Source: a virus. Taken from it: a DNA stretch of 64,000 bases. Of this stretch, positions 6,001 through 48,400 are shown piece by piece. Where the stretch lies: positions 32,001 through 96,000 of IMG/VR virus record IMGVR_UViG_3300025098_000019; one strand, written 5' to 3'. Within the stretch, counting starts at the first letter, position 1; every line of letters starts with the position of its first letter. Below the pieces are notes generated by a model. That model ran no database searches. It was given only the letters and a program-made list of their open reading frames with translations, and had not been told where the DNA came from. The translations under genes were made by a program, and so were the position numbers.

Positions 6001-9000
6001 ATTATAAAACTTATCAAAAATATCATCAACAACTGCATATTCTTTATAGAACTTAAATTGTTGTGCGCCAGGTGATAAAGTAAGTACACTACCAGCTGAC
6101 CAGTTTTGTGTAGTCCAGAACATAAGCTCTTTTACACTATATGTCCAATCTTCAATTACACCAGTTTCTTTATTAAAGTAATCAAATACAAACCCTTGGT
6201 CCATTAAATATCTTTCATACCCTAATATAAAGTCTACAAGTTCTTGTACAGTTCTTAAGGTTGTGCCATAAGGGTAGTTTTTTACTACGTTAGTAAAATT
6301 ACGTCTTAATATTGCATCTCTGCCGCCCACTGTTGGCAATGATGATAATTTAGCAAATTTATCTTGGTCAAAGGTTGAGCCACTAACATGACTGCTTATA
6401 CATCTATAATAAAATCCGTCATAACGTACATTAGCTGATTTTACATATTGCTTACTTTCGTTCCAAATAACAAATTCTTCGCTGATGCCGCCAATATTAA
6501 TAACAGGGTCAGTTGACTTAGCACTTGCTTCATAAAAATCAAATGACGCTTTCTGCTTGTCGTAACCTGCTATTGACCAGCCGTTGGGTCTTTTTTCAAC
6601 AATTATACCACTAAGTACAGCAGTATCAATTGGAGCACTTTTATTTAAAATTATCTGATAGTTTTCTTCTGGTACAAAAACATTGCCTTCATTTAAAGGA
6701 GTTCTTGAATCTAATATAAGTTTAAACTTTTCTTTTTCTGTGAAGCCGCCTACTTTAATAGCAAGTTTATTGTCAATCGACGCTATACTCTGTGTATATT
6801 TTTTCCATGTAACATCAATATTTGTTGCTAAGAAGTTGTAAATGTAATTTACTAATCCACTACTTAACACACGGGTGTTATCATTATATGTGTTTGGAAA
6901 TACTAAGTCAGTAGTTCTAATTGGAGTATTACTTTCGGTGTATACCAAATGTCCTACTAAGTTACGCTTAATTCTTGATATGTCATAACCAAGGCCCATT
7001 AGTTTTGCAGGCTGATTTAACATCCATGATGTAATTAATGCAAACGGATATTCTGAACTTTGTCTCCATGCTGTTTCTATTGGGCTGTGATCGCCGAATG
7101 TAAACTGGCTTCTAGTTTTTATTTGTACATAATTTTTAGCATAGTCGCTAGTTAATGGATCAACTAAGTTTCCTTCAGCGTCAACAGGTAAGTGATTTAA
7201 CAACCCAGGACGTACATACTTTGAGTTAACAATAGTTTGTGCATTAGGATCTCTAATTATTCCTTGCTGTAAATCTTCCCACATTACAAAGTTTGAATTA
7301 GTATATGGTGCTGGACCATACACTTCGCTCCACCACTGTGGTTCAATTGTAAGTCCTAACATTTCCCACGGATGTGTATGTGGGCGGTCAGTATCAAATG
7401 CTTCTTTATAAACTCCTCTCCAAAAACCCGGTAATGACTGGTCTTGTGGTGAACTCATTGCTGAGAAGTTAAATGTAAATTTATTTGTTTGTGACCAAAA
7501 ATCTATATTGGAATAATCAAGGCCGCCTGCAATGTCATTCCATTCTACAAAATCAGCTGACATTGCACTATTAATTTGTTGTCTTGTAAATCCTGTATCT
7601 CTATTAGTACCACTAACAAATTCGTTAATATCTAAAATATCTGTATTATACTTTTGTTTAATATTATTAAATATTCTTTTTTCAAAATCTAATATTAAGT
7701 CATCTCTATAATCGCCATATGCAACTACAATGCTGCCGTCGTGTCCTTGAATAACTTCTCTATTAATTGCTGTTGTAGTATCTGTATATTTTTTAGGATG
7801 GTATGCAGGATATAATCCTAACTTAGTTGGCGTAGCAGGAATAAAACATCCGTCAGTAGTTTCGTACTCGTAAAGATCAATTTCGTCACCGTTGTTCAAT
7901 TCAACTTTAATATTAACAAAACCTTCATCAGTAAACACATATTCTTTTTCATGTGTTAATTGTATTCCGTTAACGTACACTAGTACTGCCTTTGCACTCA
8001 ATGCATCTAAATTAAAATATTCTGATAATGCAAAAAACTTACTAGAGCTAGGTAATACTTTATATGATATTCTATTGTCTGCTTTATATGCAAGCATGTC
8101 AGAGAAGTAAAACGGCATACCTTCTGATTTTTCAGAATTTATTTTTTGTAGTACTTTGTCTACATGTACTTTAACAGGACCGTCAAAACCCAAAGTTGAT
8201 GCAGTTTGTATAAACTGTCTTTTAAATTTAGCATATTCATTTTTAGAATATCTAAGAGCTTTAACAATATTTGCATCTTTATCAACGATATGGAATAATG
8301 GTAAGTTAATTGGACCACTGTGCTTTAAAAATCTTCTGCCATATTGATCAATATCTCCGTAGTCTCTTAACGGATGCTGTTCTAAGTCAATTAAATTTTC
8401 TTGTATTGTGTTAACGTGATCAAGAACTTCACCTAACGTAAATTCTTTTGGATTTTCGTTTAACGGATTTCGTTCAAAGTTACTTGCCATTTCATAGTAG
8501 GCATTACCATTTATAATTGCTTCGCTGCTATAGAGTTTAATAACAATATTATCGTCTACATTTAATGTTTTTTCAAATGTTAACTCTCTGTCTTTGTTAA
8601 TGCTATAGTCTGTAGTAATATCATTATTAACAAATACTGCAATGCTTTCATGTATATTTTTAAAAACACTTACATTAAATGATTCATTATCTACGCCTTC
8701 GGCAATATATTGTAATATTGCTGCTTGCTCACTATTTTTATTAGCTTTAGTCCAACCATTTTGGTATGTAAACTCTGTAGGTGAATTAAACTTCTTTAAG
8801 AATCCAGCTTCTAAATTATATGTTAAAATTTCATTATCTAAATTATACTGAACAGTTTCTGTAATTAACGGAAACTCAAAAAGTATATCACCTAAATTTT
8901 CTATATTTTTGTAAGATAACCCAAAGCCTAACTCTTTGTCATTTGCTTCTACTTCGCTAACTTTATAAGAGAATATTTTAGTTCCTCTAAATGTAGAATC

Positions 9001-21071: not shown

Positions 21072-21374
21072 TTAAACGCCTAAAACTTTTTTTAATTTAT
21101 CTGGTGAAGGTAGATATATTTCTGTTCCTGCTATAAAATCAAAAACAGGATCTTTTATAGTATTCATATTTCGTTGTGCAAATACCCACCATAATTTAGG
21201 AGTACCATAATAATCGTAAGATAGTAAATCAGGACGATATGTATATTGAGGTTCAATAGTATAAACGCTATCGTCAGCACTTTCTGGAACAGGACGTATT
21301 CTCAAAATATCAAGTGCGCCTTGAGCAGTGTATCCTGTATTATTCCAAGGACTTGTTGTAGTATATGATGCCAT
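21072..21374 (-). CDS. Baseplate wedge protein, gp53-like (LysM-type)
   Basis: YTI...RPDLLSYDYYGTPKLWWVFAQRN...DP..DFIAGTEIYLP motif. Confidence 0.85.
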   Translation of the reverse strand: MASYTTTSPWNNTGYTAQGALDILRIRPVPESADDSVYTIEPQYTYRPDLLSYDYYGTPKLWWVFAQRNMNTIKDPVFDFIAGTEIYLPSPDKLKKVLGV

Positions 21375-22267
21375 TAAATAAACCCTTGTCCGCTATTAAT
21401 ATAATTTCCATTTACAAAACTGTTTAAATTAAATTCTGATACTCGTCTTCGTGAATAAGTAGGTTTCAGCGTTACTGAAATTTGACTCGACGTAGGCACC
21501 CATGTTGTACCAGCATTACTATTTTCGTCTCCTTGAACAACAGGAGTAAGTAAAGGAGTTGCAATGTAATCTACGTCAGCTGGTAAATCAACTGTAAAGT
21601 TTGCTACTACGCAAGGTACTTTGTTAAACACATAATCACCGTATCCGCTTAATTTTACTAGTGGAGGCGGAGCACCTGAGTTATCACCTTGTCCATAAAA
21701 CATTTTAGTAACACTTCTTAAGTAATGTACACATGCAACCCAATACTGGCCTTCTTCAGCAGTTTCAATATTAAATTCGCCTGTAATTACTATATCATCC
21801 GATACACTGTTATCATATATTTGGAATGGATAATTTGTATGTACTGGTTGTAAACTATTATAATTAGCACTATGGCTAACAATAATTGTTGGTGTGTAAG
21901 GAAAACAAAATCCGCCTGTTTTTGTCAAAGGTGCAATAAGTCCTGCACCTGATAGTGATGGCGGAATACTAAGTTTTACCCTCCAATCAGTATCTTTAGT
22001 TGCTTTACTAAATGATGCTGATGCTTCGCTTTTAACTTGGCCAGTATCTGGCTTAGGTAAATTTGCTCCTCTTGACTCTTTTGCAAAACCAAAGGAACTA
22101 AACAATTCGTTTGCAACGTCATTGATTGCAGAGTCAATAGCACCTATGCCCGTTTTTAAGTTATTACCTACAAAATTCTTCACAGATGCTTCTGCTTCAT
22201 TTGCAAAGTTACCAGCTGTATTTTTTATAATATTTCTACCGATGGATTTTGGGTCAAAAAGTGCCAT
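21374..22267 (-). CDS. Baseplate/tail-tube junction protein (gp48/gp54-like tube initiator)
   Basis: Contains FPYTPTI...ANY, HYLRSVTKMFYG...GAPPPLVKLSGYGDYVFNKVPCVVANFTVDLPADVDY and lies upstream of gp53. Start moved to the ATG at 22267 because AGGAGA sits 7 nt upstream of it. Confidence 0.6.
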   Translation of the reverse strand: MALFDPKSIGRNIIKNTAGNFANEAEASVKNFVGNNLKTGIGAIDSAINDVANELFSSFGFAKESRGANLPKPDTGQVKSEASASFSKATKDTDWRVKLSIPPSLSGAGLIAPLTKTGGFCFPYTPTIIVSHSANYNSLQPVHTNYPFQIYDNSVSDDIVITGEFNIETAEEGQYWVACVHYLRSVTKMFYGQGDNSGAPPPLVKLSGYGDYVFNKVPCVVANFTVDLPADVDYIATPLLTPVVQGDENSNAGTTWVPTSSQISVTLKPTYSRRRVSEFNLNSFVNGNYINSGQGFI

Positions 22268-22288
22268 AATCATATCTCCTATTATACT

Positions 22289-22294
22289 TATTTA
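22289..22294 (-). promoter_or_regulatory. Late promoter (TAAATA) for the baseplate operon
   Basis: TAAATA on the minus strand just upstream of the AGGAGA RBS of 21374..22267. The same motif precedes most structural genes. Confidence 0.65.
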
Positions 22295-22295
22295 G

Positions 22296-22324
22296 TTGAC
22301 ATAATTAAGTATGTAGTTTATAAT
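22296..22324 (+). promoter_or_regulatory. Consensus sigma70 promoter
   Basis: TTGACA (22296-22301), 17-nt spacer, TATAAT (22319-22324): a perfect consensus, upstream of the gp55-like gene. Confidence 0.9.
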
Positions 22325-22351
22325 ATGTTTATACTAACTGGAGATATTCAA

Positions 22352-23203
22352 TTGAGAAAACGAAATTACCTAAATAACAAAGATATTCTATCTGAAATAC
22401 ACAAATCAAAGAGCACATACTGTAGCTTTATTGAACCTGAACATGCACAGTTTGACATCATTTTACTAGATGTTGACAAAATAAACATAAGAACTATAGC
22501 CGAAGCAAAGCGAAACAAAGCAAAACGTCTTAGTACTGCGGATTACGAAGCAAGAAGAATGGCTGGAGAAAAAGTTAAGCAAGCAGAATGCGAAGTTGAC
22601 TATAGAAAAATTACTAAAGAAGAGCTAATTTTCCGTGTTATGACGTTTGATCATATCCCAGAAGAGCCAGGAAGAAAAAAGAACCCAAAGACCATTGCTG
22701 ACACAAAAGTAAAGCTAAACTTTCCACCATTCCACCATTACAAGTTTGACGAAGACGGAGTCTTGCAATTAGTAGGAAAAAGTCACTGGGAAGGCGGCAT
22801 GCAAAACGGTGCTTTCAATCATAAACACGGAAAAGCAACAAATACACTTGCTACTATGTGGTTAAAGTTAGTTGACAGATATGCTACCCGAGGCAATGTA
22901 CGTGGTTACACATACAATGACGAAATGAAAGGTCAAGCAATACTCCAGTTAGCACAGATTGGCTTACAGTTTGACGAATCAAAGTCAAACAATCCATTTG
23001 CATATTACACAGCAGCCGTTACTAACAGTTTTGTACGTGTTATTAACATTGAAAAACGTAATCAAAACATTAGAGACGACATTCTTGAGATGAACGATCT
23101 TAATCCTAGTTACACTCGACAACACCAAGGTGAATGGGAAGCTTCTGTTAAAAGAAACGAAGAAGCAGGATTTTCTATACACAAAGACACAAAAACCGGT
23201 TGA
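22352..23203 (+). CDS. Late-transcription sigma factor, T4 gp55-like
   Basis: NYLNNKDIL at the N-terminus and RGYTYNDEMKGQAI...FDESKSNNPFAYYT...NSFVRVINIEK match gp55. It sits upstream of gp47/gp46 as in T4-like phages. Start taken as TTG at 22352 after GGAG, because the track's ATG at 22325 abuts the -10 box. Confidence 0.85.
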   Translation: MRKRNYLNNKDILSEIHKSKSTYCSFIEPEHAQFDIILLDVDKINIRTIAEAKRNKAKRLSTADYEARRMAGEKVKQAECEVDYRKITKEELIFRVMTFDHIPEEPGRKKNPKTIADTKVKLNFPPFHHYKFDEDGVLQLVGKSHWEGGMQNGAFNHKHGKATNTLATMWLKLVDRYATRGNVRGYTYNDEMKGQAILQLAQIGLQFDESKSNNPFAYYTAAVTNSFVRVINIEKRNQNIRDDILEMNDLNPSYTRQHQGEWEASVKRNEEAGFSIHKDTKTG

Positions 23204-24276: not shown

Positions 24277-26049
24277 ATGATTCGCATTAAAGACCTAACT
24301 GTTAAAAACTTTATGAGTGTGGGTAATCAAACACAGGCTGTAGATTTTAACAAAGACAACTTAACGTTAGTACTTGGTGAAAATTTAGATCAAGGTGGGG
24401 ACGACAGTGGCTCACGTAATGGTACTGGTAAAACTACAATCATTAATGCACTAAGTTATGCATTATACGGTACTGCACTTACTAATATCAAACGAAACAA
24501 CTTGATTAATAAAACTAACAGCAAAGGAATGTTAGTTACACTACACTTTGAAAAGAACAACGTAGACTACAGGATTGAGCGAGGACGCTCTCCTAATATT
24601 TTAAAGTTTTATGTGAACAATCAAGAGCAAGAACAAATTGACGAAAGTCAAGGTGATAGCCGTAAGACACAAGAAGAAATTGATTCCTTGTTAGGAATGT
24701 CGCACACAATGTTTAAAAATATTGTTGCACTAAACACATATTCAGAACCGTTTCTTGCAATGCGTACAAATGATCAACGTGCTATTATTGAACAACTATT
24801 AGGTATTACATTATTGTCTGAAAAGGCAGAAGTACTAAAAGAAGGTACACGTAGAACTAAAGATGCAATTACCGAAGAAACTCTTAAGATTGAAGCAATA
24901 CAAACTGCTAACAGTAAGATCGAAGGCACTATTGACAATCTAAAGAAGAATCAACGTGCATGGGTCGCAAAACAACGATCTGATGTTGAAAAACTTAACA
25001 AAGCTATTGGTGAGTTAGAACAATTAGACATCGATACAGAACTTGAATTGCACGAAAAACTATCAAATTGGACTGAACATAATAATTCTATTTTGGCTCT
25101 TAAAAAGGAATTAAGCACATTAGAGCCGGCACTATTACGTGCTGACAGATCTGTTGAAAAAGCAAAAAAAGATGCCGCTGATTTAGATCAAGGCACATGT
25201 CATTCGTGTGGACAAGATCTTCCTGCTGATAAAAAAGCAGAGATAGAAAAACGCAAACAGTCGGAATTAGAAGATGCTATTTCGTATCAAACAGAGATAC
25301 AAGAAAAGGTTTCTTCTGTTGCTGAAGCACTAACAGAAATTGGTGACATTAACGGCAAACCTACAACATTTTACGATACTGCAAAAGAAGCATATGAACA
25401 TCGAAGCAACGTTGAAAATTTACGCAATGCTTTGATAAGTAAACATGAGGATACAGATCCTTATCAGAGTCAAATTGACGAATTAAACGATAGTGCAATT
25501 CAAGAAGTTAATTGGGAAAGTGTAAATCAATTAACGTCTTACAAAGAGCACCAAGATTTCTTATTGAAACTGCTTACTAACAAGGACAGTTTTATTCGTA
25601 AAAAGATTATTGATCAAAATCTTGCATATCTAAACAACAGGCTTACATACTATCTTGACAAATTAGGCTTACCACATCAAGTACTATTTCAAAATGATCT
25701 AGCTGTTGAAATTACACAGTTAGGACAGGATTTAGATTTTGATAATTTAAGTAGAGGCGAACGTAACAGATTGATTTTAGGACTATCATTTGCATTTAGA
25801 GATGTTTGGGAAAGTTTATATCAAGGTGTTAATTTACTGTTTATTGACGAATTAATTGACAGTGGTATGGATACAGCAGGTGTTGAGAATTCACTAAGTG
25901 TCCTTAAGAAGATGGCTAGGGAACGTGAAAAGAATATCTACTTAATTAGTCACAAAGACGAACTAGTTGGTAGAGTTAATAACGTATTAAAAGTAATAAA
26001 AGAAAACGGTTTCACTAGTTACGAGAACGATGTAGAAGTTGTAGAATGA
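24277..26049 (+). CDS. Recombination ATPase subunit, gp46-like (Rad50/SbcC family)
   Basis: KNFMSVGN, Walker A NGTGKTT, coiled coil with zinc hook CHSCG, signature LSRGE, Walker B LLFIDE, and ISH. Confidence 0.95.
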   Translation: MIRIKDLTVKNFMSVGNQTQAVDFNKDNLTLVLGENLDQGGDDSGSRNGTGKTTIINALSYALYGTALTNIKRNNLINKTNSKGMLVTLHFEKNNVDYRIERGRSPNILKFYVNNQEQEQIDESQGDSRKTQEEIDSLLGMSHTMFKNIVALNTYSEPFLAMRTNDQRAIIEQLLGITLLSEKAEVLKEGTRRTKDAITEETLKIEAIQTANSKIEGTIDNLKKNQRAWVAKQRSDVEKLNKAIGELEQLDIDTELELHEKLSNWTEHNNSILALKKELSTLEPALLRADRSVEKAKKDAADLDQGTCHSCGQDLPADKKAEIEKRKQSELEDAISYQTEIQEKVSSVAEALTEIGDINGKPTTFYDTAKEAYEHRSNVENLRNALISKHEDTDPYQSQIDELNDSAIQEVNWESVNQLTSYKEHQDFLLKLLTNKDSFIRKKIIDQNLAYLNNRLTYYLDKLGLPHQVLFQNDLAVEITQLGQDLDFDNLSRGERNRLILGLSFAFRDVWESLYQGVNLLFIDELIDSGMDTAGVENSLSVLKKMAREREKNIYLISHKDELVGRVNNVLKVIKENGFTSYENDVEVVE

Positions 26050-27029
26050 GTAACGAAAAATTTAATAATGCATGTAATAGAATAGCACAGCCATGTCCGC
26101 CTATATGGATGATGAGACAAGCTGGACGGTATCAAAAAAGTTACATGGAACTAAAAGAAAAATACACGTTTGAACAAATGTGTAAATTGCCGCAACTTGC
26201 TATGCAAACGGCAATGCTACCGATTAACGAGTTTGACTTTGATGCCGCAATATTGTTTAGCGACATACTTTGGCATTTAGAAGGATTAGGATTTCCTGTT
26301 GAATTTGCTCCAGGTCCTAAGTTTACAGAACACTTAACTGAAGAAAACTATTCTAAGTTTACTGATGTTGACTCAGCAATGTTACACCTTGAATTTCAGA
26401 AAAAAGCAATTATTGCTACAAAAGAAAATTTGTCGCAAAAGAAAAGTTTGATTGGCTTTGTAGGTGGTCCTTGGAGTTTACTTAACTATGCGTTAGGAAC
26501 TAATAAAGTTAGTAAAGAGTTTAAAACAATGTATCTTAAAACTGTACTTGTTCCTCTAATAAAAGAAAGTATTAGAGAGCAAAAAAGAGCAGGTGCTGAT
26601 GTTGTAATGATACTCGATAGTGGACTAGACAATGTTAGTAAAAGTTATTACGACACTACATATATAGAATTTCTTAAAGAAATTGCGTTAATTGGTGATG
26701 TAGGTTATTATGTTAGAGGCATACCAGAAGGAAGTCTTTCTAAAATAAAAAAATTAGACTTCGCTGGCATTGGTATTGACAGTTCTCAAGATTTACCTAA
26801 AACATTAAAAACATATTCAAAAGGATTTGTTCAAGGAAACTTTAACGAACAATTTTTATTACTTGAAACAAGATTATTCAAATACGAATTAGATAAGTGG
26901 TTAGACACACTATCAGGTGTAGACACTACAGGATGGATATGCGGATTAGGACACGGTATTACAAAAACTACTCCAACAGATCATATTCATCATTTTGTAA
27001 AAACAGTTAGGAGTCATTTTAGTTCATGA
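26046..27029 (+). CDS. hemE: Uroporphyrinogen decarboxylase (auxiliary metabolic gene)
   Basis: PIWMMRQAGRY, DAAILFSDIL, LIGFVGGPWSLLNY, VQGN and GLGHGI are all URO-D motifs. Confidence 0.93.
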   Translation: MSNEKFNNACNRIAQPCPPIWMMRQAGRYQKSYMELKEKYTFEQMCKLPQLAMQTAMLPINEFDFDAAILFSDILWHLEGLGFPVEFAPGPKFTEHLTEENYSKFTDVDSAMLHLEFQKKAIIATKENLSQKKSLIGFVGGPWSLLNYALGTNKVSKEFKTMYLKTVLVPLIKESIREQKRAGADVVMILDSGLDNVSKSYYDTTYIEFLKEIALIGDVGYYVRGIPEGSLSKIKKLDFAGIGIDSSQDLPKTLKTYSKGFVQGNFNEQFLLLETRLFKYELDKWLDTLSGVDTTGWICGLGHGITKTTPTDHIHHFVKTVRSHFSS

Positions 27030-27766
27030 TTAGAGTCGGTGCAAGAGGAAGTAAATTAGCTCTAGCATATGCTAGGAAAGCATGTGAGCAATTAGATTGC
27101 GAAACTGAAATTATTGAAATTACAACTCCAGGTGACATCGACACCGAAACTCCTATATACGAAATGGGAGGTAAAGGTGTATTTTGTAGTACAATTGAGC
27201 AAGAACTATTAAACGGTAATATTGACGTTGCTGTTCATAGTTTAAAAGATGTTCCTGGCCAAGAAACAGACGGATTAATAATTGCTGCAATGTTGCAACG
27301 AAACAGTCCTCATGATGTTCTTATTGGAAAAGTTAGTTATAATTGCACTATTGGAACTAGCAGTCCTAGACGTACTGCACAATTATTAGATCTTTACAAA
27401 GACTTGAGAATTAATATCAAACCTATTAGAGGAAATATAGATACTAGGTTAGAAAAACTTGACAATGGCGAGTATGATGCTATAATACTAGCAGAAGCTG
27501 GGCTTCAAGCACTTAATATATCAAGACCAACAGTTAAGGTACCAACTATTCCTGCTGTAGGACAAGGTATTATTGCTTTGCAGACTAGACAGGACGACGA
27601 AGAAACAATAAAAATAGTTAAACAGGCAAATCACGATAAAACATTTAAACAGGCAACAATTGAAAGAGCATTTTTAAAAGGCATAGACGGAGACTGTCAT
27701 ACAAAAATAGCAGCTCACGCAACTGGATCAAATCCAATTACACTTAAAGCAATGTATTATGAATGA
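27026..27766 (+). CDS. hemC: Porphobilinogen deaminase / hydroxymethylbilane synthase, C-terminally shortened (auxiliary metabolic gene)
   Basis: GARGSKLAL, GGKGVF, DVAVHSLKDVP, GTSSPRR, IRGNIDTRL, AEAGL, PAVGQG and the cofactor Cys in GDCH. The protein ends at 246 aa. Confidence 0.92.
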   Translation: MIRVGARGSKLALAYARKACEQLDCETEIIEITTPGDIDTETPIYEMGGKGVFCSTIEQELLNGNIDVAVHSLKDVPGQETDGLIIAAMLQRNSPHDVLIGKVSYNCTIGTSSPRRTAQLLDLYKDLRINIKPIRGNIDTRLEKLDNGEYDAIILAEAGLQALNISRPTVKVPTIPAVGQGIIALQTRQDDEETIKIVKQANHDKTFKQATIERAFLKGIDGDCHTKIAAHATGSNPITLKAMYYE

Positions 27767-27971: not shown

Positions 27972-27988
27972 GCACGGTAAGTAAGTTC

Positions 27989-28438
27989 ATGCAGTGGACT
28001 TATGAAGGCAAAATTATAGACAATATACCAGACGAATACGAAGGTTTTGTTTATATCATTACAAACACCACTACAGATCAAAAATACATAGGCAAAAAAC
28101 TAGCAAAGTTTAAAACTACTAAGCCACCACTTAAAGGCAAGAAAAATAAAAGACGCGGTTACAAAGAAAGCGACTGGAGAACATACTACGGTAGTTCTGA
28201 TAGATTAAACGCAGATGTAGCCGAGCTAGGCGAAGACAAGTTTACAAGAGAAATATTATACCTATGTAAAGGTAGGGGCGAAATGTCCTATATAGAGGCA
28301 CGAGAGCAGTTTGACAGGCGAGTACTTGAAACTGATGATTACTATAATGGTATCATTAATGTTAGAGTAGGCGGATCAGACAAACTTAAACAGGCATTGC
28401 TAGAACATCACATCAAGGCAAAACATTCCAACACCTAA
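27989..28438 (+). CDS. Stand-alone GIY-YIG endonuclease (DenA/Seg-like catalytic domain)
   Basis: GFVYIITN...KYIGKK motif, followed by W..YYGSS, F.REIL, a conserved Glu (IEARE) and YYN. Confidence 0.85.
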   Translation: MQWTYEGKIIDNIPDEYEGFVYIITNTTTDQKYIGKKLAKFKTTKPPLKGKKNKRRGYKESDWRTYYGSSDRLNADVAELGEDKFTREILYLCKGRGEMSYIEAREQFDRRVLETDDYYNGIINVRVGGSDKLKQALLEHHIKAKHSNT

Positions 28439-28840
28439 GGTTGGCGGGCCAGATTAGAAATACCGCTGTGGAAAAAGCTCTCGTATAGAAGCACACGTAC
28501 ATATTGATTGACACACCAGAGTGTGGAAGCCACCAAACAAATTGGGCTCACTAGTTGATATAGATTGCATGTTGGCAGTCGAAAAACACAAACACAGTAC
28601 ATAAAAACTCTTTAGCAATAGGAACGAAGCGAGAGGTAGCTGGAAACAGCGATGTCGACGTAGGTTGGGAAAGGTCAGAGCCCATTGTACTTTGTGTATA
28701 AACAATTACCTACTTCCAATGTCTCGGCTGGTGCGACTCACATGAAGCGTATTTTGAGATTAGATGGGACCGTAACAGGTTCCGTCTGACTGAAACAATC
28801 TACATGAAACTTAAACATTATTACTTCGTAATAATGCATT
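28428..28840 (+). ncRNA. Candidate large structured non-coding RNA
   Basis: No credible ORF across ~530 nt of an otherwise gene-dense genome. Many complementary segments, both nested and crossing (listed in the findings), with a GAAA tetraloop and G-U-containing stems. Boundaries are approximate. Confidence 0.6.
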
Positions 28841-28935
28841 CATCTTTATATTCATTTGTATCTATCTGATGTAATTACTTTAAACGAAGTGTTTAGTTTG
28901 AGCGTTAGCGATAACTTGTTTCGTGTAGCGAAACA

Positions 28936-28943
28936 TATAAATA
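28936..28943 (+). promoter_or_regulatory. T4-type late promoter TATAAATA
   Basis: Exact T4 late consensus, upstream of the CDS at 28974. Confidence 0.8.
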
Positions 28944-28973
28944 CAAGTAATAATTTTAAAGGTATACTCACAA

Positions 28974-29741
28974 ATGAAAATAAATGATATATTAAATGAA
29001 TCTGATGTTAAAGCTGATCCAAAGATAGTGGATAAATTTGCTGGCGTAAGTGATAGTCAAAGATCATACTACATATACCAATGGGCAAAAGAAAAAGGCA
29101 TTGACAGCGATGACGCAATGCAACTAGCTGGATATAAGCGTGGTAGTTATATGGGTGCAGGATCTTACATGTGGAACTATGCTCCAAACGAAAGCATTGA
29201 GGAAGCACCTGCAGGTATGTTAAAACAAGTAGGACGTAGACTTGGTGCTAAGGCCGCAGGCGCTATAGGCATGAAAGGCACCGCAGCAAAATTAGGCGGG
29301 GCTGCTGACGCAGGCAAAGCAGCAAATCAGTTAAAAGTTAAACTTCAAGGATACCTTGGTAAAACTGGCGGTAATATAAAGCAATTAGATGCTCAAGAAC
29401 TTTCTGCATTTTTAAAACAACAACAACTTCCAACTAACGCTGTACCTGCAAGTGGTATAATTGCACCAAAAGACGTTGATAAAGTTTTAATGAAAACTAT
29501 TCAAACAAGTAATAAAGCCGCAGGCGCACCTGCTGGCGATGCACCACAACAAGATGCACCACAACAAGCAGCAGGTGGCGGACAGCAACAAGCAGCAGCA
29601 CCACAAGCAAGTGCTCCACAAAAACAAGCAAGTGCTCCGCAACAACAGGCAGCAAGTGCAACAGGAATACCTGCAAATATACAAGCGCAGTTAGATTCGC
29701 TAACACCAACAGAGAAAAAAGTATTGGCAGGAGTTATATAA
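28974..29741 (+). CDS. Hypothetical virion protein, probable internal head protein
   Basis: Late promoter, N-terminus MKINDILNE, and an Ala/Gln/Pro low-complexity tail with short DNA repeats (gatgcaccacaacaa x2). Confidence 0.55.
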   Translation: MKINDILNESDVKADPKIVDKFAGVSDSQRSYYIYQWAKEKGIDSDDAMQLAGYKRGSYMGAGSYMWNYAPNESIEEAPAGMLKQVGRRLGAKAAGAIGMKGTAAKLGGAADAGKAANQLKVKLQGYLGKTGGNIKQLDAQELSAFLKQQQLPTNAVPASGIIAPKDVDKVLMKTIQTSNKAAGAPAGDAPQQDAPQQAAGGGQQQAAAPQASAPQKQASAPQQQAASATGIPANIQAQLDSLTPTEKKVLAGVI

Positions 29742-35967: not shown

Positions 35968-37719
35968 ATGAGTTGGAAAAAACACTTTACACCAGTGCCA
36001 CAAGGCACAGCAACAGGCGGATCGTACAGTCCTTTAAGTAATTACAAAGGAAGTATGCCAGGACCTGCTGCAAGAAATTATAATTCACACTTGCCAGATG
36101 TATATGTAGGAAATCCTAATCGTATCGAAAGGTATGGTCAATATAATACAATGGATTCAGATTCTGAAGTAAATGCAGCACTTGATATACTTGCAGAGTT
36201 TTGTACTCAAACTAATGAAGCAAACGGCACTAATTTTAAATTAAATTTTAAACAAAAAGCAACTAACTCAGAAACAACAATTATATCAAAATATCTACAA
36301 CAGTGGTGTAAACTTAATAAGTTTGAAACACGCATGTTTAGATTAATACGTAATTCCTTTAAGTACGGTGATCAAATATTTGTTAGAGATCCAGAAACTA
36401 AAAAGTTATTTCATGTAGACTGTGCAAACCTTACAAAAATTATTGTAAACGAAAGTGAAGGCAAAGTTCCAGAACAGTATGTTGTTAAAGATATGAATTT
36501 AAATTTTAAAGATTTAGTAGCAACTACACCTTATCAAACAAATGGTCAAATAAACAATGGCGGCGCAGGCAGCTATCAAAGTTCAAGCTCAGGCAAAGGA
36601 TATATTTCAGGCGGAGCAGGACAAAATGCAGGAACAAGATTTAGTAGAGAAGAAAATGAAATAGCAATTGATTCAGAACATATTGTTCACCTATCAATGA
36701 GTGAAGGATTAGATAATAATTATCCTTTTGGTAATTCATTACTTGAAACTATTTTTAAAGTTTACAAACAAAAAGAATTGCTTGAAGATGCGATTATTAT
36801 ATATCGTGTTCAAAGAGCTCCAGAAAGAAGAGTCTTTTACGTTGATGTGGGCAACATGCCTTCACACCTTGCTATGCAATTTGTGGAACGTGTTAAAACG
36901 GAAATACATCAGAGACGTATCCCATCGCAGACTGGCGGAGGTCAAAGCGTCATAGACAGCTCATATAATCCGCTTTCAATTAACGAAGACTACTTCTTCC
37001 CACAAACTGCTGAAGGTAGAGGATCTAAAGTAGAAACACTGCCAGGCGGAACTAACCTAGGAGAAATTGATGACCTTAGATATTTTACTAATAAGCTCGT
37101 ACGTGGTTTACGAATCCCTAGCAGCTACTTGCCTACCGGCGCTGAAGATGCTACTTCATCATACAATGATGGACGAGTCGGAACTGCTTATATACAAGAA
37201 TTAAGATTTAATACTTATTGCGAACGCTTGCAAGGCCTGTTAGTTGAAGACTTTGATCAAGAATTTAAACGTTACCTTTTAGAAAAAGGTGTAAACATTG
37301 ATACTTCAATGTTTGATATTCAATTCCAGCCACCACAAAACTTTGCAAGTTACAGACAAAGTGAAATTGATAATGCTCGTGTACCAACTTATACACAAAT
37401 GAGTGCTATACCTTATATTTCAAATAGATTTGCATTAAAACGTTTCTTAGGTATGTCAGATGAAGAGATTGCAGATAACGAAAGATTGTGGAAAGAAGAA
37501 AACGTTGAAAACTTAGAAGTACCACCAGCAGATGCATCAGGAGAGATGCGTAGTGCAGGTATAAGCGGCGCAGGTCTTGAAGCTGACTTGTCAGATGCCG
37601 AAGGCGAAGCTGCACCAGATGAAGCTCCAATTGAAGGAGGAGTAGGTACTCCGCCCGAAACTAATACTGGTGCAACATTAGGCGGCGGAGATGCCGCAGC
37701 AACAGATCAAACGATATAA
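35968..37719 (+). CDS. Portal vertex protein, gp20-like
   Basis: LLEDAIIIYRVQRAPERRVFYVDVGNMP, EDYFFP..EGRGSKVETLPGG.NLGEIDDLRYF..KL..GLRIPSS and ELRF are gp20 hallmarks. Confidence 0.96.
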   Translation: MSWKKHFTPVPQGTATGGSYSPLSNYKGSMPGPAARNYNSHLPDVYVGNPNRIERYGQYNTMDSDSEVNAALDILAEFCTQTNEANGTNFKLNFKQKATNSETTIISKYLQQWCKLNKFETRMFRLIRNSFKYGDQIFVRDPETKKLFHVDCANLTKIIVNESEGKVPEQYVVKDMNLNFKDLVATTPYQTNGQINNGGAGSYQSSSSGKGYISGGAGQNAGTRFSREENEIAIDSEHIVHLSMSEGLDNNYPFGNSLLETIFKVYKQKELLEDAIIIYRVQRAPERRVFYVDVGNMPSHLAMQFVERVKTEIHQRRIPSQTGGGQSVIDSSYNPLSINEDYFFPQTAEGRGSKVETLPGGTNLGEIDDLRYFTNKLVRGLRIPSSYLPTGAEDATSSYNDGRVGTAYIQELRFNTYCERLQGLLVEDFDQEFKRYLLEKGVNIDTSMFDIQFQPPQNFASYRQSEIDNARVPTYTQMSAIPYISNRFALKRFLGMSDEEIADNERLWKEENVENLEVPPADASGEMRSAGISGAGLEADLSDAEGEAAPDEAPIEGGVGTPPETNTGATLGGGDAAATDQTI

Positions 37720-42818: not shown

Positions 42819-42934
42819 ACTTTTTTCTTTTTTGATAAATACTTGTGTTATAGAGTTCCTCATATGAGGACTTATGCGGATTCCACCGCGTAGACCCTAG
42901 AACGGCAAATGATTTAAACAAAGGAGATATAATC

Positions 42935-43339
42935 ATGGGAAGACCAATTAATAAAAGATTTTTCGGAGAGCCAACAGCAGATGGCAACGAAATCAAAGTA
43001 CGTTATCGTGCTACAGGACAAGCAGAAGCAAACGGTTGGATTGTAAAGCAATTAGGATCTAAAAAGTTCCGTTGCTACGATGGTACTAACACAATGGATT
43101 GTTACTTAGTTGACAAATCACAAGGCACTTTAGCAGTAGGCGATATGACTATTACAGTTAAAGACGATGGCGGAACAGCTCGTCAAGTTACTAAAATTTC
43201 AGGTCGTATGGTAACACTTGACTCAGGTGACAAAATTGCTTGGAACTTCAGTGATGCTGCCGATGACAATGCAGTTGAAATGGAAGAAGCTGGCACAGAT
43301 GATGCATTCACTGGCGCAGATGATTTCGAAGCTGACTAA
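42935..43339 (+). CDS. Hypothetical virion protein (possible head decoration protein)
   Basis: Monocistronic late unit with TAAATA at 42836-42841, strong AAGGAG RBS and terminator. Lies close after the capsid gene. Confidence 0.6.
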   Translation: MGRPINKRFFGEPTADGNEIKVRYRATGQAEANGWIVKQLGSKKFRCYDGTNTMDCYLVDKSQGTLAVGDMTITVKDDGGTARQVTKISGRMVTLDSGDKIAWNFSDAADDNAVEMEEAGTDDAFTGADDFEAD

Positions 43340-45484: not shown

Positions 45485-48400
45485 GTGGCACAAGTAGGTA
45501 GAATATCCGGAGGTTTATTAGATAGCAACCTTCTAAGAGAAGGCGCAACAACCGGAGCAAATCAAAATCTTACATTTAGAAATGTATCATCAGCAAGTGG
45601 TGGTGCAGCAATACTTCACCTTGACGTTATTAATGATAAATTAGGATTTAATAATGATGCTCCTAGTACTGTTTTACATGTAACAGGCACAACAAAAATA
45701 TCTAATTCATTAACTGTCGATACCAATATCGACATTGCAAATCTAAATATTCAAAATAACACTATAGTACCGCTAGGCGGAACAAATAATATTATACTTA
45801 ATTCTGCTGGTGTTATTACATCAACGAATGTGCAAACTGAAGAATTATTTATTGATAATAATTTTATACAGACATCAAATACTAGTGCAAACTTAGAACT
45901 AAGACCGAACGGCAATGGTAGCGTTGAGGTAATTTCTAATGTAAATGTTAGAGGAAATTTACACTCTGAAGGAAATATTACCGCTGAAGGTAATATTGTA
46001 TTTGGTGATTCGAACACCGACACAGTTATACTTAAAGCAGAAGTAAGTAGTAATATTGTTCCTGATCAACACGATACATATGCTCTTGGTAGTACATCAA
46101 AACGCTGGATAGAATTTGAAGGGATATTATTAAACGGGCAAGAAACTACAGCAGACGTTGCACTTATCGGTGGACTAGAAATAAACTCTCGACAAGGCAA
46201 AATATGGTTTGTTGCTAAAAATGGTAGTAATTATAATGTAGGAGATCATCCGCAAGGCCCATTTGAAACTATTGATTATGCTGTAACACAAGCAACTGCC
46301 GGAGATACAATTTATGTATATCCAGGAGAATATGAAGAAAGTTGCCCAATTGAAATTCCACAAGGCGTAACTTTACGAGGACACGATCAAAGAAATACTA
46401 TTGTATATCCAGCAAGCAGTCAAAGCACTACTGATATATTTTTACTCAACGGTGAAACTGGAGTAAGTGATTTAACTATTAAAGATTACTTTTATGACAA
46501 TGCAAACGATATAGGATATGCATTTAGATTTGCAGCAGGCGGCAAAGTAACTAGCCGATCACCGTATATACAAAACGTTACGGTTTCAACTAAAGGTAGC
46601 ACAGTATCCGCAGCAGATCCTTTAGGATTTATTGCAGGTGATGCTGGGCGTGGCATCCTAGCTGATGGCGCAGTATTAGCAGCAGATACAAGAGAAGCAA
46701 GTTTATTATTTCATGCAATTACATTAATTGTTCCTAATGCAGATGCATTAGTAATGACTAATGGTGTAAGGATAGAATGGTTAAACTCCTTTACTTATTT
46801 TGCTAATAGAGGATTTTACGCAACAAATGGTGCAGGCCGAGTTGATGATAATTTACAAACACACTACGGTGCCGAAGTAAGGTCAATCGGAAGCGCAAAC
46901 ATTTACGGCAACTACGGTGCCGAAGTAGATGGCTCAGATACATTAATCTATCTAATTATGCACAACTTTGGTTACATAGGGACAGGTGCTGATAGTTCAA
47001 ATGACGAAACACTAACAATACAAGCAAATGAAGTTGTAGAAGCAAATAGTGGTAGAATACAATATCAATCACAATCACATAATGGTGATTTTAGAATAGG
47101 CGATAACTTCTTAATTGACTTTCAAAAAGGCAGCCAATCTTTTAATATTAATGATCTTCCTGTAGTTGGTGTTGATACTATTAGTGTTACCACTGGCTCG
47201 GACATTACTTTCTTAGATTTACAATATGTACAAACTGGAAATGTTAGATTAATTGACAATAGTTTAGCAAGCATCAGCGGCGACATGAATATCGCTAGTG
47301 CATCAACTTTAATAAATCTTAACGGTGATGTTACTATTGAAGAAGATCTAGATGTTAGTGGAAACTTAACTATAGCAGGAGCATTAATTGCATTTGGTAA
47401 TAATCAATCAATTGATACAATTAGATTTGAATCAGGTATTGACAGTAATTTATATCCTAAAACAACAGACATTTATGACATTGGCAGCAACACACTACAA
47501 TGGGACGATGTTTGGTTAACCCAAGTACTAAATGATGATATTAATATTACTAATAACTTTATTGAGACAACACAAACTAGTAGTGATTTAGAACTTAGAG
47601 CAGACCAAACTGGAACAATAGTTATTAGTGATAATGCTATATTTGAAAATAATTTAACAGCGTCAAGTTTAACTACATTTAATGGCACGTTAGACGTTTC
47701 AAACTTAATTCTTAACAACGGCTTGTCCGGGTTAGGAAATTTAAATGAAAATCAAAAACTAATAATAACTGGCAATCTTACAACCGGCGCAGCAGCGCAA
47801 TTTGAAGAAATATTAATCGACGGCAACTTTATTACAACTACGTCTACAAGTGAAGATTTAGAACTTCGTGCAAATAGCACTGGAAAGATATTAGTACCTG
47901 ATAATGATTTTATAGTTGTAAATGATATTATAGTAACTGAAAACGTACAAGCTGGGGAAATAGAAGCTACAGGATATATCCAGTTTGACGGAGAATATAC
48001 AACAGGTCAATTAAAAATATTTGATGATACTATTACTACAACATCAGGTAATTTAGATCTTGGCGCAACTGGTGATGTTGTAGTTGATTCAAACGGAGTA
48101 CAAATTGATAATAATTTAACAGTTATTGGATTAACTACTGTAAACAATACTGTTGATGTTACCGGCACACTAACGCATATTGGCACTAATAACCAAATCG
48201 GTAATAAAACTATTACAGGAAATCTTTATGTAAGCAATAAAAATACATTTGACCGTAGATTTGAAATTGAAGATATAGTAATTGACGGAAATGTTATTAC
48301 TACATCTGCAACTAGTTCAGATTTAGAATTACGTGCAAACAGCGCAGGAGTTATACGATTTAATAACACATTAGAAGCACTAGGAACTGGTGTTAATGTA

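What the first reader, a model, noticed from the sequence alone, without database searches (positions are those of the whole stretch)
28428..28840. Candidate large, multi-pseudoknotted ncRNA directly downstream of a GIY-YIG nuclease
Seen: this is the only long non-coding stretch in the window, and it is visibly more GC-rich than the AT-rich spacers. It has nested long-range helices: tagattg 28561-67 / caatcta 28796-802; catgt 28568-72 / acatg 28740-44; agtcg 28577-81 / cgact 28734-38; acacaaa..gtaca 28586-601 / tgtactttgtgt 28686-97. Local hairpins are cacac-caga-gtgtg 28512-25, gctg-GAAA-cagc 28639-50, and gatgggacc-gtaaca-ggttccgtc 28763-86 with G-U pairs. Two pairings cross the nested helices: tgggctc 28543-49 / gagccca 28678-84 and gtaggt 28660-65 / acctac 28708-13. 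The GNRA loop and G-U pairs favour a plus-strand RNA. Known: phages carry large ornate RNAs (GOLLD, ROOL) of unclear function. Inference: this is a ~400-nt structured RNA, possibly a new class. I cannot assign it to a family.
Basis: partly seen in the sequence, partly recalled or inferred. Interest (0 to 1): 0.85.

Follow-up and report, generated by a model that had tools for sequence, protein, structure and literature searches.

The report
Twin-box knotted RNA of aquatic phages
The gene-free stretch behind a small nuclease gene of this uncultured T4-like phage encodes a real, roughly 400-base knotted RNA that matches no catalogued family; it carries one 7-letter word twice, the two copies always change together, and its job is unproven.

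Summary
Window 28437-28838 (+ strand) is a conserved structured RNA. More than 140 IMG/VR phage contigs carry it. On 63 non-redundant homologues, 75 proposed pairs are 93% paired, against 35-39% when partners are slid. Thirty-eight pairs show compensatory changes. One pseudoknot (28586-601/28686-97 crossing 28660-65/28708-13) is supported.

These include the second "pseudoknot" (tgggctc/gagccca).

No Rfam family matches, including group I/II introns, GOLLD, ROOL, HEARO, RNase P, tmRNA and Polynucleobacter-1. No cultured phage has the RNA.

The strangest feature is two 7-nt boxes, ACAUGAA at 28740-46 and 28802-08. They are identical to each other in 68 of 69 homologues, although at least 14 different box sequences occur. 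No complementary RNA partner exists in cis.

My best guess (about 0.3) is that box 1 pairs with the template DNA strand of box 2, an R-loop anchor as in ColE1 RNA II. A trans target is about as likely.

The GIY-YIG gene is a neighbour, not an obligate partner. This scan has already noted the same "twin-box RNA" on other genomes.

The parts
28437..28838 (+). Whole twin-box RNA. The 5' limit is where nucleotide conservation begins (it overlaps the TAA stop of the GIY-YIG ORF). The 3' limit is the end of the terminator-like hairpin.
   Evidence: nhmmer and alignment of homologues. Single copy in the 110-kb record.
28443..28467 (+). Helix Ha (28443-47 / 28463-67) with a 15-nt loop
   Evidence: helix 1: 99% paired; GC to AU change at one pair.
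28468..28496 (+). Helix Hb (28468-70 / 28494-96) enclosing hairpin Hc (28477-80 / 28489-92)
   Evidence: helices 2-3: UA<->AU in 12 sequences; all 4 pairs of Hc show double changes.
28501..28561 (+). Helix Hd (28501-07 / 28555-61) enclosing a replaceable subdomain: hairpin 28512-16/28521-25 and hairpin 28528-31/28545-48
   Evidence: helices 4-7. In many relatives the subdomain is swapped for a single hairpin with a GGUAGUA loop.
28563..28580 (+). Hairpin He (28563-67 / 28576-80), 8-nt loop
   Evidence: helix 8: 99% paired; all 5 pairs show double changes.
28586..28697 (+). Long-range helix Hf: 5' strand 28586-92 + 28597-601, 3' strand 28686-90 + 28691-97 (pseudoknot partner 1)
   Evidence: helices 9-10. 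The inner 5 pairs all show double changes (ACACAAA..GUACA <-> ACUGC..ACACA <-> GGCUG..GCUAC).
28608..28635 (+). Hairpin Hg with invariant loop AGGAACGA
   Evidence: helices 11-12; GGAACGA is invariant.
28639..28650 (+). Hairpin Hh, a variable-length arm (12 nt here, up to about 100 nt in relatives)
   Evidence: the base pairs covary (helix 13).
28660..28713 (+). Helix Hi (28660-65 / 28708-13). It crosses Hf, giving the pseudoknot.
   Evidence: helix 15: 99% paired; GUAGGU/ACCUAC <-> GCAGGU/ACCUGU <-> GGAGG/CCUCU.
28666..28684 (+). Hairpin Hm (28666-69 / 28681-84) with invariant 11-nt loop AAAGGUCAGAG, the most conserved piece of the RNA
   Evidence: UGGG/CCCA <-> GGGG/CCCC <-> GGGA/UCCC; the loop is invariant in all members.
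28721..28760 (+). Helix Hj (28721-25 / 28756-60), which closes the loop that displays box 1. 28721-47 is twin module A.
   Evidence: helix 16: 83% paired; CG<->UA at one pair.
28740..28746 (+). Twin box 1 (ACAUGAA)
28763..28786 (+). Hairpin Hk (9 bp, G-U pairs)
   Evidence: helix 17: 99% paired; CG<->UA in 5 sequences.
28802..28808 (+). Twin box 2 (ACAUGAA). 28784-28809 is twin module B.
28816..28836 (+). Terminator-like hairpin (CAUUAUUA / UAAUAAUG, loop CUUCG), 7 nt after box 2
   Evidence: a hairpin follows box 2 in 86% of 101 distinct homologues (mean -7.3 against -3.0 kcal/mol for shuffles). A U-rich tail is present in only about half.
28895..28943 (+). Possibly associated downstream element: hairpin with conserved loop GAGCG-UUA-GCGAU (28895-28916), a second hairpin (28918-34), then a T4-type late-promoter-like TATAAATA (28936-43)
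   Evidence: the GAG[CU]G box is present in 101 of 107 homologues, and a similar box is seen in the non-T4-like members. Single copy in the genome.
27989..28438 (+). Neighbouring 149-aa GIY-YIG protein gene, catalytic domain only. Neighbour, not shown to be a partner.
   Evidence: PF19835 E 2e-35, phrog_447. Upstream in 126 of 140 loci.

Best explanation
SHOWN: window 28437-28838 encodes, on the + strand, a member of an uncatalogued family of roughly 340-430-nt non-coding RNAs of uncultured aquatic phages. The fold has an optional or replaceable 5' domain, a pseudoknotted core with an invariant 11-nt loop (AAAGGUCAGAG), and a 3' domain. In the 3' domain a 7-nt box (ACAUGAA) is shown once in a large loop (28740-46) and again 62 nt downstream (28802-08), just before a terminator-like hairpin. 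The two boxes lie in two roughly 26-nt look-alike modules (GUCU(C)-GRCUG-N5-7-AYYY-box). They stay identical to each other while the box sequence itself drifts freely among phages. INFERRED (mechanism, about 0.3): the boxes behave like the two strands of a helix read through a complement. The only complement that is always present and always co-varies is the antisense strand of the RNA's own gene. I therefore propose that box 1, held out by the folded RNA, pairs with the template DNA strand at box 2. That would nucleate a persistent RNA-DNA hybrid (R-loop) at the 3' end of its own gene. The precedent is the upstream G-run of ColE1 primer RNA II, which captures the template C-run near the origin. 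The hybrid could prime DNA synthesis or mark this locus, with a box sequence private to each phage lineage. The confidence given is for this mechanism. That a real, new structured RNA is present I put at about 0.95.
For: Conservation: the RNA matches at 120-390 bits in loci whose flanking protein is only 37-73% identical, and at least 120 IMG/VR stretches hold the 17-mer core. Structure: 93.1% of cells are paired against 35-39% in slid controls; 38 pairs and 416 cells have double changes; 0 of 500 shuffles reach this. Not coding: lengths mod 3 are 24/23/16 and there is no 3-periodicity. Twin boxes: the top mutual-information partner of most variable box-1 columns is the same position of box 2. 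There are more than 20 matched variant classes, and wholly different boxes in distant members: AUCAUCAAGU (L058), ACAUCAA (L195), GCCAAAU (L199). Boxes are identical in 68 of 69 homologues, against a shuffle mean of 34. No RNA partner in cis: there is no consistently placed exact complement within +-2.5 kb, and none conserved even when G-U is allowed. Box 2 is followed by a hairpin in 86% of homologues and then by a 25% G+C tract. General precedent: ColE1 RNA II is a folded pre-primer that forms an RNA-DNA hybrid near the origin (PMC11012335). The twin G-runs of RNA II and the G-run/template C-run pairing (Masukata and Tomizawa 1990, Cell 62:331) are from my own memory, not checked here.
Against: No experiment or transcript data bear on it. 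The boxes are A/U-rich 7-mers, so they would give a much weaker hybrid than ColE1's G6:C6. The hairpin after box 2 may simply terminate and release the RNA. The cumulative GC-skew minimum of the 110-kb record lies at the gene-orientation switch, 6.4 kb away from the RNA, not at it. A trans partner in the host, or in unsampled parts of phage genomes, would give the same parallel covariation.
Confidence: 0.3

Rival explanations
1. Trans-acting twin-seed RNA. The folded scaffold displays two identical 7-10-nt seeds. These bind two copies, or two sites, of an outside nucleic acid such as a host or phage RNA, or DNA of another genome. The RNA would act as a sponge, a regulator or a bridging guide.
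For: Box length is seed-like and the box sequence is arbitrary. There is no cis partner. Box 1 sits in an unpaired loop and box 2 in a single-stranded tail.
Against: No third copy or complement co-varies anywhere in the DNA held. The GIY-YIG start region, the start of the downstream ORF and the 10-nt complement inside gene 35968-37719, which is just an F-H-V-D codon run, all fail. Each box change would need the outside target to change as well, yet the boxes drift about as freely as ordinary helices of this RNA.
Confidence: 0.3
2. Cis-regulatory leader of the late or packaging genes, for example an RNA that acts on RNA polymerase or binds a dimeric protein through the two look-alike modules. 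It would control read-through of the hairpins that follow.
For: The RNA always lies co-oriented and just upstream of late-type genes. In T4-like members a late-promoter-like TATAAATA and structural genes follow. In L195, terminase large subunit and portal genes follow. Up to three successive hairpins follow the RNA.
Against: A protein that recognises both modules would not let the box drift to unrelated sequences while staying matched. Where TATAAATA is present (23 of 107 homologues have the exact 8-mer, 62 of 107 have ATAAATA), it lies after the hairpins, so those late genes need no read-through.
Confidence: 0.15
3. RNA partner or guide of the adjacent catalytic-domain-only GIY-YIG nuclease, an RNA-guided nuclease analogous to IscB/TnpB with their omega RNAs.
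For: The nuclease gene lies directly upstream in 126 of 140 loci. The protein lacks a DNA-binding domain (149 aa, with the PF19835 domain covering residues 3-123).
Against: The RNA occurs with no GIY-YIG homologue nearby in L058, L067 and L195. The same nuclease family (70.6% identity) sits next to nrdB in cultured phage Melnitz, whose complete genome has no match to the RNA model. The family is also found in hundreds of cyanophages that gave no blastn match to this stretch. The cassette sits in the same place in almost all T4-like loci that hold it, so it is not mobile.
Confidence: 0.07
4. Divergent self-splicing intron (group I-like) carrying a homing endonuclease ORF.
For: GIY-YIG ORFs are typical of phage group I introns. 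The core has a P3/P7-like pseudoknot topology.
Against: No intron model matches, even at E <= 10. The flanking genes are complete, with their own stop and start codons. There is no P8-equivalent between the crossing strands. The RNA ends in a terminator-like hairpin.
Confidence: 0.03

Closest known systems
ColE1 plasmid primer RNA II
   Same: It is a several-hundred-nucleotide folded RNA whose structure is needed for it to stay hybridised to its own template DNA (PMC11012335). From my memory of Masukata and Tomizawa 1990, it carries the same short run twice, and the upstream copy pairs with the template strand of the downstream copy.
   Different: There is no sequence or structural homology. 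The ColE1 boxes are G6 runs about 245 nt apart, whereas here they are A/U-rich 7-mers 62 nt apart. RNA II is controlled by antisense RNA I, and nothing comparable is seen here. Hybrid formation is unproven for this RNA. This is a working analogy only, not membership.
GOLLD and ROOL RNAs (Rfam RF01998, RF03087), large ornate orphan RNAs often carried by phages
   Same: They are large, intricately folded, phage-borne non-coding RNAs with no assigned biochemical function.
   Different: No match to their covariance models. This RNA is smaller. Twin boxes are not known in those families.
HEARO / omega RNAs of IscB and reRNAs of TnpB
   Same: They are structured, pseudoknotted RNAs encoded next to a small nuclease gene, with a short variable segment that specifies a target.
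   Different: No model match. The neighbouring nuclease here is GIY-YIG, not RuvC/HNH. The RNA and the nuclease occur apart. The variable segment is present twice and lies inside the RNA rather than at one end. The locus is not mobile.
Phage group I introns with GIY-YIG homing endonucleases (e.g. T4 td / I-TevI)
   Same: A GIY-YIG ORF lies beside a structured, pseudoknotted RNA in a T4-like phage.
   Different: There is no split host gene, no intron model match and no recognisable group I core. The element is fixed in place within its clade.
Polynucleobacter-1 RNA motif (Rfam RF01718), named as closest by earlier notes of this scan
   Same: It is an orphan motif from fresh-water and estuarine sequence (PMC2864571, table).
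   Different: I could not reproduce the link. RF01718 finds nothing in this 110-kb record at E <= 10. No Rfam family reaches its gathering score in 33 related loci, and none reaches E <= 1 in four of them.

Membership tests
Group I intron | Match to the Rfam group I intron covariance model(s) | tested here: not met
   No hit at gathering score in the window, nor at E <= 10 in 28300-29000.
Group I intron | Interrupts a host gene whose exons join into one reading frame or RNA | tested here: not met
   The upstream ORFs end with their own stops. The downstream ORF has its own start, which lies behind a late-promoter-like TATAAATA.
Group I intron | Conserved P3-P9 core with the G-binding site in P7 and P8 between the crossing strands | tested here: not met
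   The supported fold has one pseudoknot (Hf x Hi). A hairpin lies between the crossing strands on the 5' side and there is no P8.
GOLLD / ROOL / OLE / raiA large ornate RNAs | Match to the family covariance model | tested here: not met
   relatives.
HEARO / omega RNA (IscB, TnpB) | Match to the family model and adjacency to an IscB/TnpB gene inside an IS200/605-type element | tested here: not met
   No model match. The neighbours are sbcCD, hemE/hemC, GIY-YIG and late genes.
tmRNA / RNase P RNA / tRNA-like | Detection by ARAGORN or the Rfam models | tested here: not met
   ARAGORN finds no gene in the window. Rfam finds none.
Polynucleobacter-1 motif (RF01718) | Match to RF01718 | tested here: not met
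   No match in the 110-kb record at E <= 10. None in related loci.
ColE1-type primer RNA (analogy, not membership) | Persistent RNase H-sensitive RNA-DNA hybrid at the downstream box, and DNA synthesis starting there | not testable with these tools
   Only the sequence logic is available: identical boxes and no RNA partner.
Twin-box RNA (family defined in this scan, unpublished) | Pseudoknotted core with invariant AAAGGUCAGAG loop, plus two identical 7-10-nt boxes about 60 nt apart flanking the GGAACC/GGUUCC hairpin | tested here: met
   Model R1 scores the window copy at 168.5 bits.

The most novel reading that the evidence does not exclude
The RNA is a programmable specificity device with two identical guides. 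It works with a protein effector, possibly but not necessarily the GIY-YIG nuclease, to hold or cut two copies of a matching outside nucleic acid. That would be a new kind of RNA-guided system, one that recognises self or kin genomes.
Probability: 0.1. Interest if true: 0.95.

Novelty: categorically new. Interest (0 to 1): 0.8.

Why it matters
Large, conserved, pseudoknotted RNAs are rare, and almost every class studied has turned out to be a ribozyme, a riboswitch or the core of an RNP machine. This one is abundant in marine and freshwater phage contigs. It is absent from Rfam 15 and from 50,697 sequenced phage isolates. It also shows a kind of covariation I know from no catalogued RNA family: two copies of one word kept identical while the word itself drifts. 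That is the signature of a base-pairing specificity element whose partner is hidden. If the partner is the RNA's own template DNA, this would be an R-loop or primer RNA with lineage-private specificity in large lytic phages. If the partner is an outside molecule, it would be a natural twin-guide RNA. Both readings can be tested with compensatory box mutants.

Tried and rejected
- Rfam at gathering and at permissive thresholds, on the window and on 33 related loci: nothing in the RNA. RF01718 specifically: nothing.
- tRNA/tmRNA: none.
- Coding or decayed-gene reading: rejected. The long stop-free runs on the minus strand come from A/T skew. Indels are not multiples of 3.
- A cis RNA partner of the boxes: the exact complement within +-2.5 kb has no consistent position. 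Allowing G-U wobble gives a match only in the subset whose Hf strand happens to read UUUGUGU. Mutual information over -760..+330 gives box 2 as the best partner of most variable box columns and no other consistent partner.
- Boxes as mimics or antisense of a start-codon region: the GIY-YIG start and the downstream ORF start do not track the box. Boxes such as GCCAAAU lack AUG/CAU altogether.
- tRNA anticodon-loop partner: it would need G37 next to a CAU anticodon, which I rejected on general tRNA knowledge.
- The 10-nt complement of box 2 inside gene 35968-37719: a conserved F-H-V-D codon run that does not covary.
- Bacterial or archaeal homes: of 38 exact 17-mer hits in 185,579 species' genomes, only three are real copies, all on T4-like phage contigs binned into MAGs. 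The rest match the 17-mer alone, about as many as chance predicts.
- Cultured phages: no blastn match. Melnitz has no model match.
- GC skew as an origin marker: the minimum is at the gene-orientation switch, not at the RNA.
- Literature: no paper in the held library contains the core words. The IMG/VR csRNA catalogue (PMC10690425) lists only motifs of 29-151 nt, and its supplements are not held, so I cannot tell whether fragments of this RNA are in it.

Full report
WHAT IS THERE. The window is part of a 110-kb IMG/VR record of an uncultured T4-like myophage. Its genes include sbcD/sbcC-like nuclease genes, hemE and hemC auxiliary genes, baseplate genes and several giant ORFs. Between a 149-aa GIY-YIG ORF (27989-28438; PF19835, E 2e-35) and a 255-aa ORF (28974-29741) lies the longest gene-free gap of the window. 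Its first 400 nt have 42-45% G+C and its last 170 nt about 25%.

IS IT MORE THAN CHANCE? Energy alone says little: the MFE z-score is -1.6 on the + strand and +0.6 on the - strand. Comparative data decide the matter. I fetched loci through the downstream protein (22 loci, 37-73% protein identity). The gap matches at 120-390 bits in nearly all that reach it, so it is better conserved than its coding neighbours. Identity to the window falls as low as 57%. Invariant blocks alternate with hairpins whose length and sequence change. Element lengths are spread evenly over the three residues mod 3, and variability has no 3-nt period. It is therefore not coding.

STRUCTURE. I used 63 non-redundant homologues (alignment A1) and scored a fold of 75 pairs in 17 helices. 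Of the cells, 93.1% form standard pairs, against 35-39% when every 3' partner is slid by 1-3 columns. Thirty-eight pairs and 416 cells carry changes on both sides, against 12-23 pairs and 28-89 cells in the slid controls. None of 500 shuffles reaches these values.

The supported elements are as follows:
- Ha: 28443-47/63-67.
- Hb/Hc: 28468-96.
- Hd: 28501-07/55-61, enclosing a replaceable subdomain.
- He: 28563-67/76-80.
- Hf: the long-range helix 28586-601/28686-97.
- Hg: 28608-35, with an invariant GGAACGA loop.
- Hh: the variable arm 28639-50.
- Hi: 28660-65/28708-13, which crosses Hf and so forms a pseudoknot.
- Hm: a 4-bp hairpin 28666-69/81-84. Its stem covaries (UGGG/CCCA, GGGG/CCCC, GGGA/UCCC) and its 11-nt loop AAAGGUCAGAG never varies.
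- Hj: 28721-25/56-60.
- Hk: 28763-71/78-86.

Abundant G-U pairs place the RNA on the + strand. Two of them compete with the strongly covarying hairpin He. tgggctc pairs locally instead.

THE TWIN BOXES. Two short stretches change in parallel rather than in a complementary way: ACAUGAA at 28740-46, in the loop closed by Hj, and ACAUGAA at 28802-08, in the 3' tail. Over a -760..+330 alignment, the best mutual-information partner of most variable box-1 columns is the same position of box 2. More than 20 matched variant classes occur, among them ACAUGAU, ACAUAAU, ACGUGAA, GCAUAAA, GCAUGAA, ACAGGAA, ACAGAAA and GUAUGAA. Distant members carry unrelated boxes that are again identical at both sites: AUCAUCAAGU in L058, ACAUCAA in L195 and GCCAAAU in L199. 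After allowing for two alignment offsets, 68 of 69 homologues have identical boxes; the shuffle mean is 34 and its maximum 42.

The boxes end two roughly 26-nt look-alike modules: GUCUC-GGCUG-GUGCG-ACUC-box and GUCU-GACUG-AAACA-AUCU-box. Box 2 is followed after about 7 nt by a stable hairpin in 86% of homologues.

I looked for the strand that both boxes would pair with and found none:
- No exact complement at a consistent position within +-2.5 kb.
- No conserved complement when G-U is allowed.
- Not the GIY-YIG start region.
- Not the start of the downstream gene.
- Not a 10-nt complement inside gene 35968-37719.
- No further conserved-position copy in the record.

WHAT IT IS NOT. Rfam 15 gives no hit at gathering score or at E <= 10, and none in 33 related loci. 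ARAGORN finds nothing. RF01718 (Polynucleobacter-1), which earlier notes of this scan named as closest, finds nothing in this record at E <= 10. It is not an intron, because the flanking genes are whole and no intron core is present.

RELATION TO THE NUCLEASE. A GIY-YIG homologue lies directly upstream in 126 of 140 loci, in the conserved order sbcC - small ORF - GIY-YIG - RNA. That is vertical synteny, not mobility. The RNA also occurs without the nuclease gene. In L058 and L067 there is no homologue within 6.6 kb upstream and no Pfam hit. In L195 the RNA sits about 1 kb upstream of terminase and portal genes. Conversely, the cultured OM43 phage Melnitz has the nuclease (70.6% identity) next to nrdB, but no match to a covariance model of the RNA core (R1; G000 scores 168.5 bits, Melnitz nothing at E <= 1). 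The same small-nuclease family is found in hundreds of cyanophages. None of 50,697 phage records matches the RNA by blastn. Of 38 exact core-word hits in prokaryote genomes, only three are real copies, and L180, the one I read, lies on a T4-like phage contig binned into a MAG.

HOW IT MOST LIKELY WORKS. Shown: a folded scaffold displays one arbitrary 7-10-nt word twice, and selection keeps the two copies identical. Inferred: such behaviour needs a nucleic-acid partner that changes with them. The boxes drift about as freely as ordinary helices of this RNA, which fits a two-site system better than a three-site one. The only complement guaranteed to track both boxes is the antisense strand of the RNA's own gene. 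I therefore favour pairing of RNA box 1 (and part of module A) with the template DNA strand of box 2 / module B. This would anchor an R-loop at the 3' end of the gene.

The working precedent is ColE1 RNA II, a folded pre-primer that hybridises to its template near the origin (PMC11012335). The detail that an upstream G-run captures the template C-run, so that RNA II carries the run twice, is from my memory of Masukata and Tomizawa 1990. The hairpin and the very A+T-rich tract after box 2 fit an unwinding or priming site. The box would then be a lineage-private specificity. Against this reading, the hybrid would be weak, nothing experimental supports it, and the GC-skew minimum lies 6.4 kb away at the switch of gene orientation. 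I give it about 0.3. An unidentified trans target gets about the same, a cis-regulatory or protein-binding role about 0.15, a nuclease guide about 0.07 and an intron about 0.03.

NOVELTY AND STANDING. I found no paper or catalogue entry for it. The IMG/VR csRNA survey reports only motifs of up to 151 nt, and its files are not held here. This scan has already flagged the same family on at least 29 other genomes as the "twin-box RNA". My analysis reached the twin boxes independently, before reading those notes, and it agrees with them except on the Polynucleobacter-1 link.
- the Hm hairpin and the twin-module view;
- unrelated box sequences in distant members;
- separation of the RNA from the nuclease in both directions;
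- the argument that the hidden partner may be the gene's own template strand.

Noticed in passing
window 28895-28943: There is a conserved two-hairpin element between the RNA and the next gene. The first hairpin has a covarying stem and a conserved loop GAG[CU]G-NNA-[AG]CGA(A/U)A. The second is a stable covarying hairpin. In many relatives a T4-type late-promoter-like TATAAATA follows (23 of 107 have the exact 8-mer, 62 of 107 have ATAAATA). The GAG[CU]G box is present in 101 of 107 homologues, and a similar box follows the RNA in the non-T4-like members L058 and L067. It occurs once in the 110-kb record. It may belong to the same functional unit as the RNA.
   Followed up: partly
window 42857-42937 (+): This matches the Rfam freshwater-2 RNA motif (RF02980) at 52.4 bits against a gathering score of 49.9. 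It lies in the 350-nt gap before ORF 42935-43339.
   Followed up: no
window 26046-27766 (+): The phage carries two haem-pathway genes side by side: uroporphyrinogen decarboxylase (hemE, PF01208, E 8e-63) and a porphobilinogen deaminase (hemC, PF01379, E 5e-64) with only part of the C-terminal domain. Only 8 (hemC) and 1 (hemE) of 140 related loci have them at this place, so this is a recent insertion between sbcC and the small ORF.
   Followed up: partly
window 27976-27983 and related loci: The motif GGTAAGTA sits 5-14 nt before the GIY-YIG start codon in most relatives (..ggcacGGTAAGTAagttcATG). Its role (ribosome binding, promoter, processing) is unknown.
   Followed up: no
window 1-11076 (-), 45485-52189 (+), 52335-59864 (+): These are three giant ORFs: more than 3692 aa (open at the window edge), 2234 aa and 2509 aa. 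That is unusual even for large myophages. I did not examine them.
   Followed up: no
L176, L180 (PBPT01000016.1 335 kb, PBPT01000082.1 153 kb) and L144 (JBDNIA010000124.1): Contigs filed under bacterial MAGs (Neomarinimicrobiota RS350, Crocinitomicaceae) carry the RNA. L180 also carries the full sbcD-sbcC-small ORF-GIY-YIG-RNA gene order, so it is most likely a phage contig binned with a bacterial genome. Alternatively it is a hint to the host.
   Followed up: partly
window about 22000-22330 (genome 54 kb): The cumulative GC-skew minimum of the 110-kb record coincides with the point where gene orientation switches from minus to plus (ORFs 21374-22273 on - and 22325-23203 on +).
   Followed up: no
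window 28621-28629 against 28883-28890; L058: The invariant Hg loop word GGAACGAAG recurs in part (AACGAAGU) in the spacer after the RNA. In L058 a 10-mer GGAACGAAGU occurs both in the Hg loop and downstream of the RNA. This may be a second same-sense repeat between the RNA and its downstream DNA, or it may be chance.
   Followed up: partly
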